Made by a program: the position numbers and the translations under genes
DNA from: Eledone cirrhosa
Taxonomy: Eukaryota
DNA length: 64,000 bases
Assembly: GCA_964016885.1 (NCBI GenBank)
Contig: OZ024742.1
Coordinates: 254,014,001 to 254,078,000, forward strand
Reading direction: 5' to 3'
Notes under the pieces: model-generated
The model's database searches: none
What the model was told of the DNA's origin: nothing
What the model saw: only the letters and a program-made list of their open reading frames with translations
In this document: piece by piece, positions 2,547 to 61,702 of the stretch
Position numbering within the stretch: position 1 is the stretch's first letter
How the letters are laid out: each line of letters begins with the position of its first letter

Positions 2547-4942
2547 GTAATATATACTTACCTATGCAAATAAGTAATGGTATAAACACAACATATACTG
2601 AGCTACCACGCCAAGACGTAAAATACCCATGTATAGATCGTACTATCCGTTAGGGTATAATGTGGCGCTGTAATACAGGAAAGTTTTGTGCAATTTATAT
2701 TTACAAGCCGAAATTGCCTCAGATTTTTTGTTTAAGATGTGGCCTGTGGCGTAGAGTATTTCCAAGGCCTCAGCGGCGCAGAGGTCACTTGGTCTTTAAT
2801 TTCCGTTATACGATCTAGCCCTAGCTAGGATCTCCCAGTGTAACTTATATCGAGTGTGGTTGTCTTTTAGACTCCAGATATAAGCTGAAAGTGACGTCAT
2901 ATTCTTTCTTAGAGGGTAACGAAAAAAATGGGTATGCATGTAAAGACGCTGCTCGAATCTATTGACGGTTAACCCTATGTAGGCCCTACGGGACGTGGGT
3001 GTTACAACCCTACATTTGCAGACAATGTTACTAGAAAGGCATTTCCCGGATCGGGGCAATCAACCCGATTCCTACAATTACAGTTAGTACTAACTACAGG
3101 GTTGCACGTGTTCCTACGGCTAGATAGTTTAGTCAAATTTGAAGCCGTGATGTTATGTGCAAGGTTAGGAGTCGTAGAGTAAGACATTTTAATAGTATTT
3201 CTATTAAAAATGTTACTATATTTATGTGTAGGGGGAAATGCTTCGTAATAAAGAATAGAAAAATCTTAGCTAATGGTGTGGCCACCTCCATATTATATGG
3301 TGGGTTATACCATATAATGCGACGGCATCGATTTCTTCTAGGTTTATCCTCGTACTCTGTATATGCTACCTTATCGACAAATCCACTCCGAGCAAGAGCT
3401 TCATTGTAATATGTGGAATGGTCGTTGAAAATATGCTCGTTAGTAGATAGACGGGAAAGCCTCAACGAAACGTTTCTTACCAGGTTCTTGGTTATGCTGG
3501 CACGATGGTTGGAATGCTTACTTATGTAATTAAGCTTATCATTCGGCTTTCTATACGGGTAATACAAGCCATTCTATAAATTGAGGGTAACGTCGAGGTA
3601 ATTAACGACCGAGAGGTTGGCCTCAACCTGTATAGAGAGGTTGAAGCCTTTAAAGAAGGTTGTGAGTTTTTTTCTGAACCTGTCGCAAGCACGAGGGCCG
3701 CACTTTGTCATGGTCAAAAGAACATCATCGCGGTACAAACCACCGCCTGCGTTGGGGAATTCGTCCTTGATAGAGAAAAGAAGGAAAAGGCCGATAAGAT
3801 CAGTAACCTCCGCAGAATCGCTGGCACCCATACTCACGTCGAATGGGGTACTATTGGATTTTTTAATCCAAATAGAGTCATCGAAATTAATCACCGACTT
3901 ACGGGCATTGAGGATGACATCAACTTCGAAATCCTTAACCACTGTGAGTGTTTTAGCGAAATTGATAGCTCTAAGGAGAAGTGGTAAAGTGATGGAGGTG
4001 TAGTAATTATTGATGTCGAATTGGATAAAACGGCAATGTTCCTTGTTGCATATGCCGTTGAACCAATCAATCACCGCGAAAGAATTGTTCCACAGTGTAA
4101 GAGGGGCCAAACTTCTAATTTCAGGTATAATTCTATCAAGAATCCTTTTCCTAAGTCTACCTAAATCGGACTTCGTAGGGTTAATAAGCCGAATAGAGGG
4201 GTTGTTCGGAAAATTGGATTTGTGATCCTTCAGGTTAAAGTGGGGAGAAATAGGGTCCAGAGGTTCGGTCCGGTCCAGGATGTTGAGATCGGAGGTGATT
4301 TTAAACCCAGCATCGTTGATTTCATTGATGACTAACCGATTAGTTTACGGTAATCCTTAGTACAGCATTATGTAGTAGTTGATGGTAAGTACTGCGCTCC
4401 ACTTGATATAGGTTGCCAGTTTTGTCGGAATGGACGTGCACGGCATTAGAATCCTTAATAGAACGAATTCTATTCTTCAGGTCCTGCTGGAAGGAATTGC
4501 TCCTATTCCGAAATTTGATACTCCGTATGAGTTCCAAGACATCATTTTCAAAGGGTAGCAATGCTGGGTTACACGGAGGGTTATTTTAGGCAATTTCGGC
4601 TTGTAAACATAAATTGCACAAAACTTTCCTGTATTACAGCCCCACATTATACCCTAACGGATAGTACGATCTATACGTTGATATTTTACGTAATCACGTG
4701 GTAGCTAAGTATATGTTGTGTTTATACCATTACTTATTTGCATAGGTAATTATATATTACCTGTATGTTTTGTGAAGGGAAAGTTTCCACGAACCAAAGT
4801 ATCGTCTTCCTCTCTTCCTCCGGTTGCAACGCTTTTTGAAATATCCACTTCTGCGTTTACAGATTGACTTTGTTAGTTTCAGAAGATCCCGTTAAGGGTG
4901 AAAGCAGCAATTCTTTGCTTAAACTTTAATCTGTTATTATAA

Positions 4943-5001: not shown

Positions 5002-5622
5002 CGTCCCTTCACGCACAAGGCGCCAAGGTACGCATGTATTGTCCAACCAAGTGCCAATGTGGTTCAATGGCGGGTTAATAAATTAACGAGCCAGAACAAA
5101 TATAAACAAGGTTTAGTAAATAATGAAAAAGTTTCAAAATAAATTTTAAAAAATTGACTTTACCTACTATAGTTACCTTTACCGATCGGTTTCGAATCCC
5201 AAAAATAAAACGGAGACCATACGGCCTTCGTTGCAAAGAAAGATTCTCGTCAGAAGATTCTTTTCATTCAAAGAATATAAAATTCCTGAATTTAAATCAC
5301 AAACTAGCGCTATCAAAAACTGTTCCTGGGATGAGAGTGGATGATGTAGAACAGGTTTATCAAGGGCCGTAGCAAAGATAGAGGCAAAAGGAGGTAGGTC
5401 AAACTAGCCACCGCTATTGCTAGCAGCAGTCGGAATGACCCGGTTTGTTCTCAACGTTAGTGGAGGTAGTAGTAATATGAAATACGTCCCTTCACGCACA
5501 AGGCGCCAAGGTACGCATGTATTGTCCAACCAATTCGAAACCGATCGGTAAAGGTAACTATAGTAGGTAAAGTCAATTTTTTAAAATTTATTTTGAAACT
5601 TTTTCATTATTTACTAAACCTT

Positions 5623-8384: not shown

Positions 8385-8454
<70 letters not shown>

Positions 8455-8491
8455 ATTAAATAAATGGAAATTATATTTATAAAACCATATT

Positions 8492-8557
8492 TATTTCATT
8501 ATATATATTTCAGGGATATCATATTAAAAATATGTTATGCCTTCTTCAGACAAAATA
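8492..8557 (-). ncRNA. Type I hammerhead ribozyme (mirror copy)
   Basis: Reverse complement of 8693-8758. Confidence 0.85.
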
Positions 8558-8692: not shown

Positions 8693-8758
8693 TATTTTGT
8701 CTGAAGAAGGCATAACATATTTTTAATATGATATCCCTGAAATATATATAATGAAATA
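8693..8758 (+). ncRNA. Type I hammerhead ribozyme
   Basis: tattttgt-CTGAAGA-agg..catatt ttt aatatg..cct-GAAA-tatat-ATA-atgaaata; 8-bp stem I with two GU pairs, palindromic (AU)n stem III. Confidence 0.85.
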
Positions 8759-9054
8759 AATATGGTTTTATAAATATAATTTCCATTTATTTAATATCGT
8801 AAATATACTCCAAATACTTGTTGAGTGCTTTTATATCAGTTATAAATATTTACTCGTTGTAACCCAACAATTTAAATATAACTTTCCATGTATATATATA
8901 TATATATATATATATATGTTTAATATAGAAATGGCTTCTACAGGACTAGAACTTTCATTTCTAGTTATACTCTGCCATCTATTGAGTACCTTACTTACTC
9001 TGGTTACCCCCGATTGAACCTGGGATACACACACACACACACATGTATATATAC

Positions 9055-12906: not shown

Positions 12907-13329
12907 TTATATATAGGGTTTAAAGTTTTGGAACGAGTGTCGGAAGCGGTGTTGGCAATTTGCGAACACTTCTGATTTTTTATTAAGGAGATTATGTTTA
13001 GAGAAGATGATAGTATGGGTCTCTAGTAGACAGAGGTTACAAAATTTATCAGGTGGTTTGTACGATGTTGCACTACCTACCACTTCCCATTTAAGTGTAT
13101 ATATTTTATTTTTAGTTTTTAGATAGTGTATGTAGCTAGATAGTGAAGTGGAGTTGGCTAGACTGTGTTTTTTGAAAGAGTGGAGGTGCGAATTGTATCT
13201 AGTTTTGAAGCAGTTAGAAGTGGAGCCTATGTAGGTTTCAGAAGAGCTGTTAGTTGTGACTGTGCATGAGTATATGATATCCTTGGTTAAGCATTTTTTA
13301 TCTAAAGGGCAGGTTCTACTTGATTTATC
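12907..13329 (-). CDS. PLE GIY-YIG endonuclease domain (no start codon, absent from the ORF track)
   Basis: Hand translation: CPLDKKCLTKDIIYSCTV..ETYIGSTSNCFKTRYNSHLHSF..TSLSSYI..LKWEVV..CNLCLLE..LLNKKSE..CQHR..; similar to ORF 40592-41107. Confidence 0.88.
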   Translation of the reverse strand, partial: DKSSRTCPLDKKCLTKDIIYSCTVTTNSSSETYIGSTSNCFKTRYNSHLHSFKKHSLANSTSLSSYIHYLKTKNKIYTLKWEVVGSATSYKPPDKFCNLCLLETHTIIFSKHNLLNKKSEVFANCQHRFRHSFQNFKPYI

Positions 13330-13786
13330 TTACTGGTAATAGGATAGTAATTAATGACTATCTCTCACTATTTAGGGTTTGTGTATATATAATATATTAC
13401 CATTAAAGGTTTTATTGCATACATAACCATAAATAGTACCCTTAATACTATATATATATATATATATGATGGCTGCCCCCTCGATAACAAGTATGGCCAT
13501 TGCCCGATATAACATTATTAATAATTAATACTATCATGCAATGCGTGTCCGTGAAGATTTTTTTAAAAGTGAGGAAAGACTGTGCACAATCCCACGCTCT
13601 GAGCGACAGTAGCTATAACCCGAAAAGAAGAAAAGATCAACATCATCGGTAACTACTGAGCTGCAGGTTTTATGTTAGAGTTATCCCAGTTTCCTGGGTT
13701 GCCTTCTCCTAGAAGAATGCCCAGACAAAGGTTAGGGGTCCTTCACTCCCTATATACACACATATATATACATATATATATATACA

Positions 13787-13825
<39 letters not shown>

Positions 13826-13828
<3 letters not shown>

Positions 13829-14350
13829 GTAGAACACTGGGAGGTAATATCCGTAGTGGTAGAGCACTCAGTCCATGGGACGAGTTAGGTAGAAGTGGTT
13901 ACTCAACAGTTAGTTCACCATACCGAGAACAATTGTTTCACCTTAGCGGATCCTCAGCTCGTAATGGACATGGTTATACGGAACAGGAAGGACAACCGTA
14001 CGAACGCGCATGCGAAGAAACCGTCACTTCACACAGGCAATACTAAAAAGCGTGCGAGATGTGTAAGGGAGATAACTGCGAAAGTCCGAAAGGTTTCTAG
14101 TTAATAAGAAAAAATAAGATGTTGTGATTCAATCCGGAGTTTTGTAGTTATGTAAGAGGTGTTTCGAGACGTGTGGACAACGTGTGAAGAATTCATTACT
14201 CGTGTTTAGGCAATCACTATTGCATAATCTCTTTAGTATATTTTTCGTTCATCAATACATAGTCTACACGACGGATTCCGCCTTGCATATGGCTTGGACT
14301 TAGTGATGGCTTTCCATTGAATGGAGTAGTCTATACTTGAGTCCTTGAGG
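13826..14350 (-). mobile_element. PLE 3' fragment: frameshifted GIY-YIG C-terminus + 3' UTR + HHR, ending at (TA)n
   Basis: Minus 14340-14128 reads YSIQW..SKPY..CRLCIDE..CLNTSNEFFTRCPH with frameshifts; HHR at 13918-13967. Confidence 0.78.
13918..13967 (-). ncRNA. Type I hammerhead ribozyme
   Basis: Minus strand: ccattacgag-CTGAGGA-tcc gctaa ggt-GAAA-caatt-GTT-ctcggtatgg; palindromic stem III, GUU site. Confidence 0.82.
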
Positions 14351-14356
14351 AACCAT

Positions 14357-14797
14357 AGTAAGTGACATAGTCACTACTTTAAAAATGAGAGCATATGGTC
14401 TTCTAAATATTTTTAATTAAACATACAGTATATTGCCAAATATACTATACATACATTCAAGTATAAATCGCTATTTCAGAGTACCAATCCTAATACCTAA
14501 TTTTTGCTGGACCGGCAATCGCTCTGTATAATCAGCTCCTGATTATTACTGGAATTCTACCAGCTTCTATAATTTTTGGCAAAAGCAGGGGAGTACATGG
14601 CTATGATGAACGCTAACCAGTGTGAAACAGACTGTCAGCTTCTCCCCCTTCTTCACCGAAAAGAAGTAAGTGACATAGTCACTACTTTAAAAATGATAGC
14701 ATATGGTCTTCTAAATGTTTTTAATTAAACATACGGTATATTGCCAAATATACTATACATACATTCATGTATACATCACTATTTAAGAGCACCAATC

Positions 14798-14803
<6 letters not shown>
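14357..14803 (+). mobile_element. Non-coding terminally redundant unit (308-bp period) containing a decayed HHR
   Basis: Direct repeats 14357-14495 / 14665-14803 bracket an HHR-like motif; ends in (TA)n. Confidence 0.7.
14599..14640 (+). ncRNA. Hammerhead motif with C3A substitution
   Basis: ggct-ATGATGA-acgct aacc agtgt-GAAA-cagact-GTC-agct; all three stems pair. Confidence 0.65.
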
Positions 14804-14841
<38 letters not shown>

Positions 14842-15313
14842 TTGATATCATCACAATTCTGTATAGAATTCCACATGAAACAAAGAGAGTAACTATGAAG
14901 TCTGTACTAAATTCAGAATATAAACCAACAATTAACACACAGATACATCATACATGAAAGCAATTATAATAACTGCCATGCTTCTACTGTTGGGAAATTT
15001 TAAATCTGGCATAAATGATTTCTTACTACTCCCATGATCCTTTATGTCTATTAAGCATGTGACAAATATGTCATTAATGTGACCATTCTGATCCTGAAGA
15101 TGGAGCCATGAAGGCTTTTATATGTTAATACACAAATAAATTTAGGACTGTTACTGTTCCAAACTAAACATGAAAACTAATATAGAAATAGAAAAAATCA
15201 TGGTTAATTTAAATTCGAACATGGTTAATAATTATAAAATGAGTAAAAGAAAGTATAACTAAAGGACAGATGTTTCAGTAACGAAATGCCTGAAAAGTAA
15301 ATGAATGAATAAA

Positions 15314-15534: not shown

Positions 15535-15862
15535 ATCAAAGGCAAAAGGTTTATCCACTCGGGGTGAGGAGAAACCATACATAATGCCATCTTCACTTTG
15601 TTGTTGTTCTTGTCCAGTTTAATGTCCAGTTTTCATAGTTGTATAAGTTAAATGGGTTGTCATGTTATGAGACAAGTCAGGTCAGATGAATGCATCTTAC
15701 TCATATGGAACTGTTTCTGACTTGGTTTCTACAGCTGGATACCCTTCTTAATGTCAACCACATTACAGTATGGATTGGATACTTTTTATCATGTCACCAA
15801 ACAACAATCTGACAGGTTAGGCTGGGTATATATATATATATATACCCAGCCTAACCTGTCAG

Positions 15863-16045
15863 GTTACTCAGCTGTAGAAATGAGATGATAGGGACTGGGG
15901 TAAAAAAAGCACCCAGCACTCACTGTAAATGAGGTTGGTGTTAGGAAGGGCATCCAGCTGTAGAAACCAAGCCAGAATCAGTTCCTGTCCCACCCTTGCA
16001 ATCAGGGAAAAAGCGGACGTAAAATGAAATGATGATGAAATGATA
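15863..16045 (+). mobile_element. 5'-truncated Meta-like SINE
   Basis: Matches the 3' half of 44243-44580. Confidence 0.8.
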
Positions 16046-39702: not shown

Positions 39703-40216
39703 CATATATAACTAGAAAAAGCTTACTAGAAAAATTCCTCACATACAGGCATAACAATGGAGACGGTATCTTACCAACATCTACCAGCAATAATAGGGTA
39801 ACCCAGGTCGGCCCCCTCAGGGGCTATGTTAACACATGGGACTAATAGGAACAGCGCGTGCAACAGGCAGCAGTCCAGCTGCCACAGTAGAAACACCCAC
39901 CAAGGCTTAAACGACCACACCGGCCAATGGCAACACGGAAATGCCGGCGTAATGTCATATGGTTCCTTCCCTCCTACACTAGGAGTATAGCCTCAAACAT
40001 ACCTAGAATCTTCTTCAACACCTTGGAGAGGAACTTCCCACCTAACCATAGGTACCATAAGATCCTAAACAAGAATAACGTCAAAATCTGTTACTCTACT
40101 ACACCTAACTTAGCCAACCTCATAGCACTTAGCAACCACAGTAAGCTTACTAGAATCATGCTATCTCGTAATGCCAACATTTGAATGCCTGGCCACCTTA
40201 ATAACCATAACAATAC

Positions 40217-40396
40217 TTGTTTCTACTTTAGGCACAAGGCCAGCAATTACCCAGTGCATTACTGGTACTTTATTTTATCGACCCCGTAAGGATGAAAGGC
40301 AAAGTCAACCTCGGCGGGATTTGAACTCAGATCGTAAAGGGACGTAACTATGCTTGAAAGCATGGCGTCCGACCCTCTACCGATACTGCCAATCCA
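40217..40396 (-). mobile_element. Nin/Deu-like tRNA SINE
   Basis: Same head and core as 18185-18377. Confidence 0.87.
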
Positions 40397-41486
40397 AACA
40401 ATACTGTTTGCCATAATAACAATGATAGAAACCAGGATAATAATGATAGTAATAACAATAACATTAACAATATCAACACCATAGAGACTAACCACAGCAT
40501 TAATAGTGGAACTGATGACCAGGATAGAAACTGTAGCAGTGATAACAACAGCAGTAGAGGGAGCCATAATAAGAACAATAGAAATAACACCATGTCGCAA
40601 AACTATATCTGTAATAATGCCAACCGCAACAATGACGACAGCAGTGATAGTGGTAATGATAGTAGTAATGATAGCAGCGAACCTCACCACATTAGAAATA
40701 GCAACAAAAGGCATTACAATTGTCGAAACCTCAACAACTGTCCACTCCAGGGCCACTGCTTGATTAGAAATGTAATCTACAAATGCACTCTGATGAGTTA
40801 TAATAGCATAAAGTCATATATAGATGCCACTTCTAATGAGTTCAAGACTAGATTTAGATCGCATCTCCTCTCATTTAGAAATAAGAAACTCAGATTCTCT
40901 ACCTCCCTTGATAATTATATTACACTATTAACTGAATCTAACATTAGCTACACCACACAATGGGGAAAAGTTGATCAAGCAACCCCATATAATTTTAGGA
41001 ATAATTGCCAGCTCTGCCTAATGGAAACATACTTTATAGTGAACTCACCCCAGGAACTCATTAATAGTCGGGCTGAAACAGTCATCAATTGCAACCACAG
41101 ACTATAGCACTCGTTCTACAAGTGGTCTCCAGAACAAGAATAACATCCTATCCCCACAGCTATCTGCATCGCACCACCATTTAGTCCACCTACAATAAGT
41201 AGGTCAAAGTGCAGTGTCTAATGACGCTATTAACCCTCCATCTGATTTTTACTGAGGCACTGCCCATCACCTACTGAGTTAGGCTCACCCTGCTAAACCT
41301 TCCCCCAAGCTGGGATAGGTTAAAATAAATTTGAGGGTAATTTAATGCCTAGCATCGTACAGTTACCTCCCCTAGTGGATTATGCCCCTTTCACTGACGC
41401 CATTGTTGTTATTTTTTTCGTTTATCATGCAAGAAATGATTCTCAACGGTATTTATACTTATTGATGACATTATACAATCAATTAT

Positions 41487-48990: not shown

Positions 48991-48994
<4 letters not shown>

Positions 48995-49453
48995 ATTAAA
49001 TAAATGGAAACTATATTTATAAAACCATATCTATTTCATTATATATATTTCAGGGATATCATATTAACAATATGCTATGCCTTCCTCAGACAAAATACAA
49101 TATAAACAGTTTTATAGATAAATAGATTCGACATACCGTAACAACATCGACTTGTATTTGAAAAGGTTGATTGACTGCCAAATCAACCTTTTCAAATACA
49201 AGTCGATGTTGTTACGGTATGTCGAATCTATTTATCTATAAAACTGTTTATATTGTATTTTGTCTGAGGAAGGCATAGCATATTGTTAATATGATATCCC
49301 TGAAATATATATAATGAAATAGATATGGTTTTATAAATATAGTTTCCATTTATTTAATATTGTAAATATACTCCAAATATTTGTCGAGTGCTTTTATATC
49401 AGTTATAAATATTTACTAGTTGTAACCCAACAATTTAAATATAACTTTCCATG
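48991..49453. mobile_element. Second asymmetric fold-back element with an HHR in each arm (49032-49097 minus, 49256-49321 plus)
   Basis: Arms 48991-49172 / 49181-49362, 8-nt spacer; same start and end nucleotides as 8451-8890. Confidence 0.9.
49256..49321 (+). ncRNA. Type I hammerhead ribozyme
   Basis: tattttgt-CTGAGGA-agg..catatt gtt aatatg..cct-GAAA-tatat-ATA-atgaaata. Confidence 0.85.
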
Positions 49454-61589: not shown

Positions 61590-61636
61590 ATATACAATAT
61601 ATTAATAAATGGAAACAATATTTATAAAACCATAAT

Positions 61637-61702
61637 TATTTTATTATATATATTTCAAGGGCAACCAAGGCAAATTATAGTGCGCTTTCATCAGATAAAA
61701 TA
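61637..61702 (-). ncRNA. Type I hammerhead ribozyme, diverged relative of 8693/49256
   Basis: Minus strand: tattttat-CTGATGA-aag..ctt-GAAA-tatat-ATA-ataaaata; perfect 8-bp stem I. Confidence 0.85.

What the first reader, a model, noticed from the sequence alone, without database searches (positions are those of the whole stretch)
14357..14803. Second terminally redundant HHR unit (308-nt period), unrelated in sequence
Seen: ~139-bp direct repeats flank a motif that differs from a complete HHR only at C3 (ATGATGA), with a GUC site and three paired stems; it ends in (TA)n. It is fused head-to-head to the 5' truncation point of the PLE fragment at 13826-14350. Inference: an older retrozyme-like unit, possibly co-inserted by PLE RT template jumping.
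Basis: partly seen in the sequence, partly recalled or inferred. Interest (0 to 1): 0.75.

Follow-up and report, generated by a model that had tools for sequence, protein, structure and literature searches.

The report
Decayed hammerhead retrozyme beside Penelope fragment
This 447-base stretch is one worn copy, with a C-to-A change in its ribozyme core, of a small non-coding hammerhead-ribozyme repeat scattered over all the large chromosomes of this genome, and it was likely pasted into a TA microsatellite by Penelope-like retrotransposon machinery, probably in the same event as the Penelope tail fragment it abuts; it is an ordinary member of a known class with one instructive junction.

Summary
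Window 14357-14495 and 14665-14803 are 139-nt direct repeats, 94% identical and 308 nt apart. Between them lies a three-stem hammerhead (HHR) motif whose only core defect is A instead of C3 at 14603.

The unit is not a local duplication. It has 3,243 first-look candidates in the 3.0-Gb genome, and the 34-nt HHR core of the family majority occurs exactly 156 times (reversed control 0). C3 is C in 37 of 40 other sampled copies.

In 83 arrays the copies behave like Penelope-like element (PLE) insertions:
- 0.3-2.2 units long, with variable 5' truncation.
- 3' ends at two TA-rich sites, next to (TA)n.
- Head-to-head self pairs in 15 of 66 loci.
- None runs into a coding frame.

The neighbour 13826-14357 (minus strand) is the 3' end of an abundant RT-plus-endonuclease PLE. 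It meets the unit head-to-head with no filler. Both arms show about 3% post-insertion divergence, so they are the same age.

Verdict: a dead 1.45-mer of a non-LTR retrozyme family, a known kind. It was probably co-inserted with a PLE tail by priming on both DNA strands, not by template jumping. Self-cleavage and RNA circles are untested.

The parts
13751..13825 (.). Left (TA)n microsatellite flank, imperfect, abutting the 3' end of the PLE fragment
   Evidence: TRF period 2, 37 copies, 89% matches. Ten of 11 other copies of the PLE fragment also end ...CCAC followed by (TA)n.
13826..14357 (-). 5'-truncated 3' end (about 530 nt) of an abundant Penelope-like element ('PLE A'): the last ~68 codons of the endonuclease ORF plus the 3' UTR. 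Its 3' end is at 13826.
   Evidence: 2,457 first-look candidates, 93-96% identical copies. Other copies continue upstream into an RT-plus-GIY-YIG-like ORF. PLE homology reaches 14357.
13898..13987 (-). Minimal hammerhead-like motif in the PLE A 3' UTR: CTGAGGA, a 2-bp helix II with a U-U at its base, GAAAC, the palindrome ACAATTGT, and a long helix I. It is unrelated in sequence to the unit's HHR.
   Evidence: Read by eye. Nearly invariant in 14 copies of PLE A. No Rfam hit. The MFE fold is not better than shuffles.
14357..14664 (+). First, complete unit of the hammerhead repeat (retrozyme unit, 308 nt here; 36% GC)
   Evidence: 88-91% identical full-length matches on many chromosomes. 17 differences from the family majority over 308 aligned positions. 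GC.
14588..14648 (+). Type I hammerhead motif. Helix I 5' strand 14588-14602; core box 14603-14609 (ATGATGA, A at C3); helix II 14610-14623; GAAA 14624-14627; helix III to 14635; predicted cleavage after C14636; helix I 3' strand 14637-14648.
   Evidence: Intact sister copies align to Rfam Hammerhead_HH9 over the whole model at 21.7-29.3 bits, below the gathering score of 52.
14665..14803 (+). Partial second unit (unit positions 1-139), giving the terminal redundancy. Its end at position 139 is one of the family's two usual 3' ends.
   Evidence: 94% identical to 14357-14495. 26 of 83 arrays end at unit positions 118-148 and 49 of 83 at 95-112.
14801..14838 (.). Right (TA)n microsatellite flank abutting the 3' end of the hammerhead unit
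   Evidence: TRF period 2, 19 copies, 100%. 47 of 83 arrays have (TA)>=4 within 30 nt of their 3' end.

Best explanation
Window 14357-14803 is a 1.45-unit, terminally redundant copy of a dispersed ~315-nt non-coding repeat whose majority sequence carries a complete type I hammerhead core, and it was likely inserted into a (TA)n microsatellite by target-primed reverse transcription using Penelope-like-element (PLE) machinery.

**Shown by the calls.**
- The repeat, and the motif with A at C3.
- The family is abundant and dispersed.
- The family majority has C at C3.
- Copies have a PLE-type insertion anatomy: variable 5' truncation, more than one unit in length, two preferred TA-rich 3' ends next to (TA)n, and frequent head-to-head self pairs.
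- No copy runs into an ORF.
- The neighbour is a PLE 3' fragment joined head-to-head without filler.
- The two arms are equally diverged.

**Inferred life cycle.**
1. Source loci holding two hammerheads would be transcribed. Self-cleavage after GUC (unit position 280) would release unit-length RNA, which the host could circularise, as described for metazoan non-LTR retrozymes.
2. A PLE endonuclease/RT would nick a (TA)n target. The nicked TA strand would anneal to a UA-rich stretch of the RNA (unit ~95-112 or ~133-139). That would explain why 3' ends lie inside the unit and not at the cleavage site.
3. Reverse transcription would run round a circular or multimeric template for more than one unit, producing the terminal redundancy.
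4. Here the opposite DNA strand probably primed on a PLE A transcript tail. The two cDNAs were then joined head-to-head at 14357, in one event with two different RNAs.

**State of this copy.** It is dead. It has one hammerhead only, with C3 changed to A and CpG decay, so it could not excise a unit-length RNA.
For: **Family size.**
- 3,243 first-look candidates and 111 scored matches at 88-91% identity on many contigs.
- 156 exact copies of the 34-nt majority core against 0 for the reversed control.

**Hammerhead core.**
- C3 is C in 37 of 40 copies, and all three core blocks are intact in 28 of 40.
- HH9-type alignment over the whole model, with CUGAUGA, a 4-bp helix II, GAAAC, GUC and the UAC bulge of helix I; E=1.5e-4 in a 141-nt search.
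- 10 sub-threshold HH9 hits in 7 of 12 loci.

**Insertion anatomy, 83 arrays in 66 loci.**
- Lengths 88-714 nt.
- 75 of 83 3' ends fall at two sites.
- (TA)>=4 lies at the 3' flank in 47 of 83 and at the 5' flank in 25 of 83.
- Head-to-head self pairs in 15 of 66 loci, with gaps from -12 to +49.
- These features match the published PLE hallmarks (PMC8557442, passages).

**Not a PLE tail.** No array continues into PLE coding sequence.

**The neighbour is a PLE.**
- 24,385 first-look RT candidates.
- Atlas look-alike clusters carry RVT_1, GIY-YIG and HTH_animal.
- It shows a partial-tandem pLTR and inverted self copies.

**Junction and age.**
- The junction is unique and has no filler.
- The arms show 2.9% and 3.0% divergence.

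**Other points.**
- Unit GC is 36%; it holds no tRNA and only a 51-aa stop-to-stop frame.
- Literature: non-LTR retrozymes are ~300-bp, low-GC units with type I HHRs (PMC7229834, passages). They have been proposed to hijack PLE machinery (bioRxiv 10.64898/2026.07.22.740005; abstract, Results part 1 and Discussion).
Against: - No hammerhead family reaches Rfam's gathering score in any copy (best 29.3 against 52). The window copy gets no HHR hit even at E<=10.
- No cleavage, RNA or circle data could be obtained.
- Arrays are short, at most 2.2 units. Only 11 exact two-hammerhead spacings exist genome-wide, whereas classic retrozymes form dimers up to large multimers.
- Only 1 of 83 5' ends lies at the predicted cleavage site. 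The ribozyme therefore does not visibly define the ends of insertions.
- The unit shares no detectable sequence with PLE A, including its 3' end, or with the other PLE copies in the window. The autonomous partner is not identified.
- The heterologous head-to-head pair is seen only in the window: 1 of 66 loci, and that is the locus that prompted the study.
- Independent insertions do pile up in the same microsatellites, as in L051 and L079/L080.
- The sampled loci are biased. Two searches returned the best-matching copies and one required an intact core.
Confidence: 0.78

Rival explanations
1. The PLE A fragment and the hammerhead unit are two independent insertions into the same (TA)n hot spot that happen to abut. 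They are not products of one integration event.
For: Both families target (TA)n. Unrelated insertions are seen side by side in one microsatellite: in L051 a unit sits upstream of a PLE A pLTR, and in L079/L080 a PLE and a unit lie tail-to-tail. No second heterologous head-to-head pair was found among 66 unit loci, 11 other PLE A loci or the 40 scored junction candidates.
Against: No TA repeat or filler is left between the arms; the overlap is 1 nt. The arms have equal post-insertion divergence, 2.9% against 3.0%. Immediate head-to-head pairing is a regular product of this machinery, seen in 15 of 66 loci. The unit's 5' end at position 1 lies in a common 5'-end zone, with 12 of 83 arrays ending there.
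Confidence: 0.3
2. The 315-nt unit is not a separate non-autonomous element. It is the terminal repeat (pLTR tail) of an autonomous PLE family, seen as heavily 5'-truncated copies.
For: PLE tails carry hammerheads and form partial tandems and inverted copies (PMC8557442, passages). Earlier notes of this scan on other genomes ended that way. The parent PLE of this unit was not searched for exhaustively.
Against: Of 83 arrays, every one longer than a unit re-enters the unit, up to 2.2 units and 714 nt. None continues into coding sequence. PLE protein hits in the 66 loci are all non-adjacent, apart from the inverted PLE A fragment in the window's own locus. There is no similarity to PLE A or to the PLE copies in the window.
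Confidence: 0.1
3. The family is a PLE-dependent short repeat in which the hammerhead-like motif is inactive or incidental. The ribozyme plays no part in its propagation.
For: All Rfam scores are below threshold. 5' and 3' ends of insertions do not coincide with the cleavage site. PLE clades without hammerheads proliferate well (PMC8557442, passage).
Against: Every canonical core position and all three helices are present in the majority sequence. The motif aligns end-to-end to HH9, including the helix I bulge. The 34-nt core is exact in 156 copies. 5' ends pile up at both edges of the motif, which suggests it is folded in the template.
Confidence: 0.1
4. A single-locus tandem duplication or satellite fragment.
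For: Only 1.45 copies are present at this locus.
Against: There are hundreds of dispersed copies on many chromosomes, each with its own flanks.
Confidence: 0.01

Closest known systems
Metazoan non-LTR retrozymes (Cervera & de la Pena 2020, PMC7229834; passages read)
   Same: A non-coding unit of about 300 bp with low GC (36%), one canonical type I hammerhead per unit, head-to-tail redundancy, no LTR/PBS/PPT and no ORF, in many copies per genome.
   Different: Arrays here are short (0.3-2.2 units) and dispersed, not long multimers. Insertions sit in (TA)n and often carry an inverted partner. RNA circles were not tested.
Retrozymes as non-autonomous derivatives of PLEs (Li, Clavereau & Pollet 2026, bioRxiv 10.64898/2026.07.22.740005; abstract, Results part 1 and Discussion read)
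   Same: A PLE-rich genome also holds a hammerhead repeat family. The proposed model is hijacking of PLE machinery.
   Different: That work rests on co-occurrence and pLTR similarity. Here no sequence similarity to a PLE was found. The link is instead the insertion anatomy and one head-to-head joint with a PLE tail. Its supplements were not seen.
Canonical endonuclease-positive PLE insertions with pLTRs and minimal hammerheads (Craig et al. 2021, PMC8557442, passages; Cervera & de la Pena 2014, known to me only through citations in those passages and from recall)
   Same: 5' truncation, partial tandems, an adjacent inverted 5'-truncated copy, and a microsatellite (TA)n bias. The neighbour PLE A shows all of these, plus a minimal hammerhead-like motif in its tail.
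   Different: The unit encodes nothing and cycles back into itself. Its hammerhead is the canonical kind (4-bp helix II, helix I bulge), not the minimal PLE variant.
Rfam Hammerhead_HH9 (RF02275), type I hammerhead
   Same: Full-length alignment of intact copies, with the same order of helices, CUGAUGA/GAAAC/GUC and the UAC bulge.
   Different: Scores of 21.7-29.3 bits against a gathering score of 52. Helix III is a 3-bp near-palindrome. The setting is a repeat family, not a conserved intronic element (that setting of HH9 is recalled).
Twin-priming inversions of LINE-1 (recalled, not read here)
   Same: Two cDNAs primed on opposite target strands and joined head-to-head.
   Different: Here the two arms would come from two different RNAs, and the enzyme would be a PLE RT with a GIY-YIG nuclease.

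Membership tests
Hammerhead ribozyme, type I | Catalytic core C3-U4-G5-A6-N7-G8-A9, G12-A13-A14, A15.1-U16.1, H17, in the window copy | tested here: not met
   The window has A at C3 (14603). All other core positions are present.
Hammerhead ribozyme, type I | The same catalytic core in the family the copy belongs to | tested here: met
   The majority reads CTGATGA...GAAA...GTC. C3 is C in 37 of 40 copies and all blocks are intact in 28 of 40. There are 156 exact 34-nt cores.
Hammerhead ribozyme, type I | Three helices around the core, with helix I open | tested here: met
   My scan gives helix II 5 pairs, helix III 3 pairs and inner helix I 4 pairs in the window copy. The HH9 alignment of L016 shows all helices. 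The MFE fold recovers helices I and II.
Hammerhead ribozyme, type I | Reaches the curated Rfam gathering score of a hammerhead family | tested here: not met
   No hit in the window. Sister copies score 21.7-29.3 bits against 52 for RF02275.
Hammerhead ribozyme, type I | Self-cleavage at the predicted site | not testable with these tools
   No RNA run was listed.
Metazoan non-LTR retrozyme | Short non-coding unit (150-450 bp), low GC, no LTR/PBS/PPT, no ORF | tested here: met
   Unit of 308-316 nt at 36% GC. Only a 51-aa stop-to-stop frame. No tRNA.
Metazoan non-LTR retrozyme | Head-to-tail tandem copies, from dimers to multimers, so that two hammerheads flank a unit | tested here: inconclusive
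   Arrays are 88-714 nt, at most 2.2 units. Eleven places hold two exact motifs one unit apart and no longer array was seen. The window copy has a single hammerhead.
Metazoan non-LTR retrozyme | Expressed as linear and circular unit-length RNA | not testable with these tools
   No RNA holder was listed.
PLE-type insertion (mobilised by PLE machinery) | Variable 5' truncation, partial tandems, an adjacent inverted 5'-truncated copy, microsatellite bias | tested here: met
   83 arrays in 66 loci: 5' ends are spread over the unit, 75 of 83 3' ends fall at two sites, 15 of 66 loci have head-to-head pairs, and (TA)>=4 lies at 47 of 83 3' flanks. Criteria are from PMC8557442.
PLE-type insertion (mobilised by PLE machinery) | Sequence similarity of the non-autonomous element to the 3' end or pLTR of its autonomous partner | tested here: not met
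   No similarity of the unit to PLE A (L043, L044, L051) or to the rest of the window beyond TA-rich words. Other PLE families of the genome were not examined.
Endonuclease-positive Penelope-like element (the neighbour, 13826-14357) | A single ORF with RT followed by a C-terminal GIY-YIG endonuclease | tested here: inconclusive
   A 722-aa frame with YRDDG and a VIYEAV...YVGMAE...FKERFLNH block, both read by eye. The local Pfam copy and PDB give no hit. Atlas look-alike clusters carry RVT_1, GIY-YIG and HTH_animal in part of their members. Homologues carry PF26215 and PF28514.

The most novel reading that the evidence does not exclude
The locus is a fossil of one Penelope integration event that copied two different RNAs: the element's own transcript tail on one DNA strand and a hammerhead retrozyme RNA on the other. 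That would be direct physical evidence that PLE machinery mobilises retrozymes in trans. The family's more-than-unit-length copies start at internal UA-rich sites and not at the ribozyme cut. This would mean the template is a circular or multimeric RNA primed by microhomology with the (TA)n target.
Probability: 0.5. Interest if true: 0.55.

Novelty: new member of a known kind. Interest (0 to 1): 0.38.

Why it matters
How animal retrozymes move is still open. The 2026 preprint argues for dependence on PLEs from co-occurrence and pLTR similarity, and says it has limited evidence on the life cycle.

This family offers a clean, countable insertion signature: a (TA)n target, two internal start sites, and inverted partners. 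It also offers one equal-age joint with a PLE tail. Together these make trans-mobilisation directly testable in this genome. The two full-text searches made here for a retrozyme paper naming twin priming, or naming microsatellites together with Penelope, found none that describes this signature.

The window copy itself has no likely function.

Tried and rejected
- **Rfam on the window.** Gathering threshold on the whole window and E<=10 on 13500-15200 gave no hammerhead, only TA-repeat 'miRNA' noise.
- **Rfam on three PLE A loci.** No hammerhead at E<=0.5.
- **Three-gap DNA search pattern.** I replaced it with my own regex scan.
- **RNA evidence.** No RNA holder was listed.
- **Contigs of X22-X24.** These are one sample of unrecorded kind. 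They cover the repeats only as short pieces, and no listed piece bridges 14357, so they were uninformative.
- **Naming the PLE ORF.** Pfam (local copy) and PDB sequence searches gave nothing usable.
- **Earlier notes of this scan.** Nothing by place or by sequence.
- **Junction query 14200-14515.** No second locus holds both halves among the 40 scored of 3,653 candidates.
- **Unit against PLE loci and the window.** No homology apart from a separate unit insertion in L051.
- **tRNA scan** for a SINE origin: none.
- **Core variability against the rest of the unit.** I dropped this as a test, because 30 of the loci had been selected for an intact core.
- **Covariation counting.** Not attempted. 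Copies of one young family differ mainly by neutral and CpG decay.
- **Second BLAST search with another copy as query.** It returned largely the same loci, so it added only about ten new ones.

Full report
**1. The observation**

The repeat finder reports one 139-nt direct repeat, 14357-14495 and 14665-14803. It is 94% identical with a start-to-start spacing of 308. A script counts 8 mismatches and no indel.

TRF lists (TA)n at 13751-13825 and at 14801-14838. It does not list the 308-nt period, because fewer than two copies are present.

Between the repeats the + strand reads GGCT ATGATGA ACGCT-AACC-AGTGT GAAA CAGACTGTC AGC.... My structural scan gives 5 pairs for helix II, 3 for helix III and 4 for the inner part of helix I. 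The outer GGGGAG/CTCCCC pairing of helix I is recovered by RNAfold. Against the canonical core, the only departure is A in place of C3, at 14603.

On its own the motif is not strong evidence. The same relaxed scan gives about twenty hits in the window. Rfam finds no hammerhead at gathering score in the whole window, nor at E<=10 in 13500-15200.

**2. It is a family, and the family restores the ribozyme**

The unit 14357-14664 has 3,243 first-look candidates in the window's own 3.0-Gb genome. Forty were scored and gave 111 matches. Full-length matches are 88-91% identical and lie on many contigs.

I aligned 41 copies of the hammerhead region. The majority reads GGCT CTGATGA ACGC CAACCA GCGT GAAA CAGACTGTC AGC. 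Of the 40 copies other than the window's:
- 37 have C at C3 (two have T, one is deleted);
- 28 have CTGATGA, GAAA and GTC all intact.

The 34-nt majority core occurs exactly 156 times in the genome (94 forward, 62 reverse), against 0 for the reversed control.

Intact copies align over the whole Hammerhead_HH9 model (RF02275). The alignment shows the expected order of helices, the 4-bp helix II, GAAAC, GUC and the UAC bulge of helix I (E=1.5e-4 in a 141-nt search). The scores of 21.7-29.3 bits stay below the gathering score of 52. At E<=1 there were 10 hits, in 7 of 12 loci.

Helix III is a 3-bp near-palindrome (ACAGACTGT). Short helix III hammerheads of this kind are reported to cleave better as dimers (PMC7229834, passage). 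That is not tested here.

The window copy differs from the family majority at 17 of 308 aligned positions. Several are CpG transitions, and one is the C-to-A change at C3.

**3. How the copies are built**

I mapped arrays in 66 distinct loci. Loci L002-L030 and L052-L076 came from two BLAST-type searches, which favour long, well-kept copies. Loci L077-L106 came from the exact-core pattern and are in genome order, but they require an intact core. After removing duplicates there are 83 arrays.

- **Length.** 88 to 714 nt, that is 0.3 to 2.2 units. Every array longer than a unit runs back into the unit.
- **3' ends.** 49 lie at unit positions 95-112 and 26 at 118-148. Both are TA-rich stretches. 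Eight lie elsewhere.
- **(TA)n flanks.** (TA)>=4 lies within 30 nt of the 3' end in 47 of 83 arrays and of the 5' end in 25 of 83.
- **5' ends.** These are spread over the unit, with pile-ups at 294-299 (9), 300-308/1-14 (12, including the window copy) and 230-236 (6). Only 1 lies at the predicted cleavage site (279-283).
- **Inverted partners.** 15 of 66 loci hold a second array of the same family joined head-to-head, with gaps from -12 to +49 nt.
- **Coding sequence.** No array is collinear with coding sequence. PLE protein hits in these loci are all at a distance, apart from the inverted PLE A fragment in the window's own locus.
- **Two-hammerhead arrays.** Only 11 places in the genome hold two exact 16-nt hammerhead motifs one unit apart, and none are chained.

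These are the features listed for PLE insertions: strong 5' truncation, partial tandems, an adjacent inverted 5'-truncated copy, and a microsatellite bias, with (TA)n for some clades (PMC8557442, passages).

**4. The neighbour**

Window 13826-14350, read on the minus strand, has 2,457 first-look candidates and copies at 93-96% identity.
- All 11 other copies fetched continue upstream of the window's truncation point; 10 share the full upstream sequence.
- All 11 end ...CCAC or ...CC, and in 10 of the 11 this is followed by (TA)n.
- Longer copies carry frames with FDIV.FYPSIS, SMGSFDSADV and YRDDG, followed by a VIYEAV...YVGMAE..FKERFLNHQSTF block.
- One copy has an uninterrupted 722-aa frame, preceded directly by a 361-nt partial copy of the element's own 3' end, which is a pLTR.

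The local Pfam copy and the PDB sequences give no hit. Other lines of evidence:
- 499 homologues at E<=1e-5 carry PF26215 and PF28514.
- Atlas look-alike clusters carry HTH_animal, DUF8422, RVT_1 and GIY-YIG in part of their members.
- The RT part has 24,385 first-look candidates in the genome.

RT followed by a C-terminal GIY-YIG nuclease in one ORF is the definition of a canonical EN+ PLE (PMC8557442, abstract).

The fragment's tail also holds a minimal hammerhead-like motif at 13987-13898 on the minus strand. It is nearly invariant in 14 copies. It gets no Rfam support and its fold is no better than shuffles. It is unrelated in sequence to the unit's hammerhead.

**5. The junction and the ages**

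A query spanning the joint shows PLE homology up to 14357 and unit homology from 14357. That is a 1-nt overlap with no TA repeat or filler. No other locus among the 40 scored holds both halves. Both 3' ends face outward onto (TA)n.

Within the duplicated 139 nt, the two repeats share 2 differences from the family majority, which were inherited from the template. They have 8 private differences, acquired since insertion, which is 8 in 278 nt or 2.9%. The PLE fragment differs from the majority of its 11 nearest copies at 16 of 525 positions, or 3.0%. Those 11 were chosen as the nearest copies, which biases that figure downward. The arms therefore look equally old. 'Older' is not supported.

An inverted joint is not what template jumping gives, since that yields head-to-tail joints. 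It fits priming on both strands of the target, as in PLE inverted copies and in LINE-1 twin priming (the latter recalled, not read). I put about 0.6-0.7 on a single event using two RNAs.

The rival is two independent hits in one microsatellite. It stays alive for two reasons. Such pile-ups do occur, as in L051 and L079/L080. And the heterologous pair is unique in my sample.

**6. Mechanism**

Shown: points 1 to 5 above.

Inferred, following the published retrozyme model (PMC7229834; bioRxiv 10.64898/2026.07.22.740005):
1. Loci with two hammerheads are transcribed and cut after GUC, and the ~316-nt RNA is circularised.
2. A PLE nuclease nicks (TA)n.
3. The TA 3' end anneals to a UA-rich stretch of the RNA, at about 95-112 or 133-139.
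4. The RT runs more than once round a circular or multimeric template.

The internal, TA-rich 3' ends and the more-than-unit lengths fit this. They fit a plain linear monomer cut at 280/281 less well. The data cannot tell a circle from a multimeric transcript.

The window copy has one mutated hammerhead, so it is a dead product and not a source.

**7. Comparison with what is known, and novelty**

The family meets the descriptive features of metazoan non-LTR retrozymes. The exceptions are long tandem arrays (inconclusive) and circular RNA (untestable here).

It fails one expectation for non-autonomous PLE derivatives, namely similarity to a partner's tail. I tested that against PLE A and the PLE copies in the window only.

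It is a new member of a known kind. The specific points I did not find in print are the PLE-type insertion signature of a retrozyme family in (TA)n and the equal-age head-to-head joint with a PLE tail. The searches were 'retrozyme' + 'twin priming', with 0 papers, and 'retrozyme' + 'microsatellite' + 'Penelope', with 6 papers held and 5 listed. Of those I have read parts of two. In the preprint's Discussion microsatellites appear only in a remark on satellite birth, and the passages of PMC8557442 that I read describe the (TA)n bias for PLEs, not for retrozymes. The other listed papers were not opened. The preprint's supplements could not be seen and may bear on this.

**8. Limits**
- No RNA data were available.
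- The locus samples are biased, as described in section 3.
- Copy numbers are first-look candidates, not counts.
- The domain calls for the PLE rest partly on motifs read by eye.

Noticed in passing
window 2808-4579 (-) and 5161-5253 (-): A second PLE family, 38% identical to PLE A over RT and endonuclease (tblastn). Upstream of it on the same strand lies a well-formed hammerhead-like motif: CTGACGA, a 7-bp helix II, GAAAC and the palindrome CCGATCGG.
   Followed up: partly
window 12907-13329 (-): A 140-aa frame with a GIY-YIG-type block (IYSCTV...YIGSTSNCFKTRYNSH). Pfam GIY-YIG gives E=8.4e-4 at 20 bits, below the 22.6 cut-off. It is 27% identical to the PLE A endonuclease. It looks like a 5'-truncated copy of a third PLE family.
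   Followed up: partly
window 39933-40990 (+): Further PLE-like coding fragments, 32% identical to the C-terminal third of PLE A.
   Followed up: no
window 8452-8549 (-) / 8701-8798 (+); 48992-49089 (-) / 49264-49361 (+); 61596-61694 (-): A repeated AT-rich element carrying a weak hammerhead-like pattern (CTGA[AG]GA ... CCCTGAAAT ...). It is present twice as a head-to-head inverted pair. This may be another PLE-type tail or may be chance; helix II has only 3 pairs.
   Followed up: no
83 arrays of the unit family (loci L002-L106): 5' ends pile up at both edges of the hammerhead fold: 9 at unit positions 294-299, just 3' of helix I, and 6 at 230-236, its 5' edge. That is 15 of 83 ends in 13 of about 316 positions. 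Only 1 lies at the cleavage site. This would fit an RT stalling at a folded ribozyme, or a fixed transcript start at about 296.
   Followed up: partly
L051 1068-1481 and 1500-1878: A unit insertion lies directly upstream of a PLE A partial-tandem pLTR in the same microsatellite and in the same orientation. This is an example of independent pile-up in (TA)n/(CA)n.
   Followed up: partly
unit family, all copies: CpG positions of the unit vary 2.6 times more than other positions (0.107 against 0.041 non-majority fraction). This suggests that these repeats are, or were, cytosine-methylated.
   Followed up: no
window 15707-15985 and 15806-15865: A 58-nt inverted repeat (86% complementary, 163 nt apart) encloses a perfect 30+30-nt palindrome centred on (TA)n. 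It may be a small hairpin-forming or MITE-like element.
   Followed up: no
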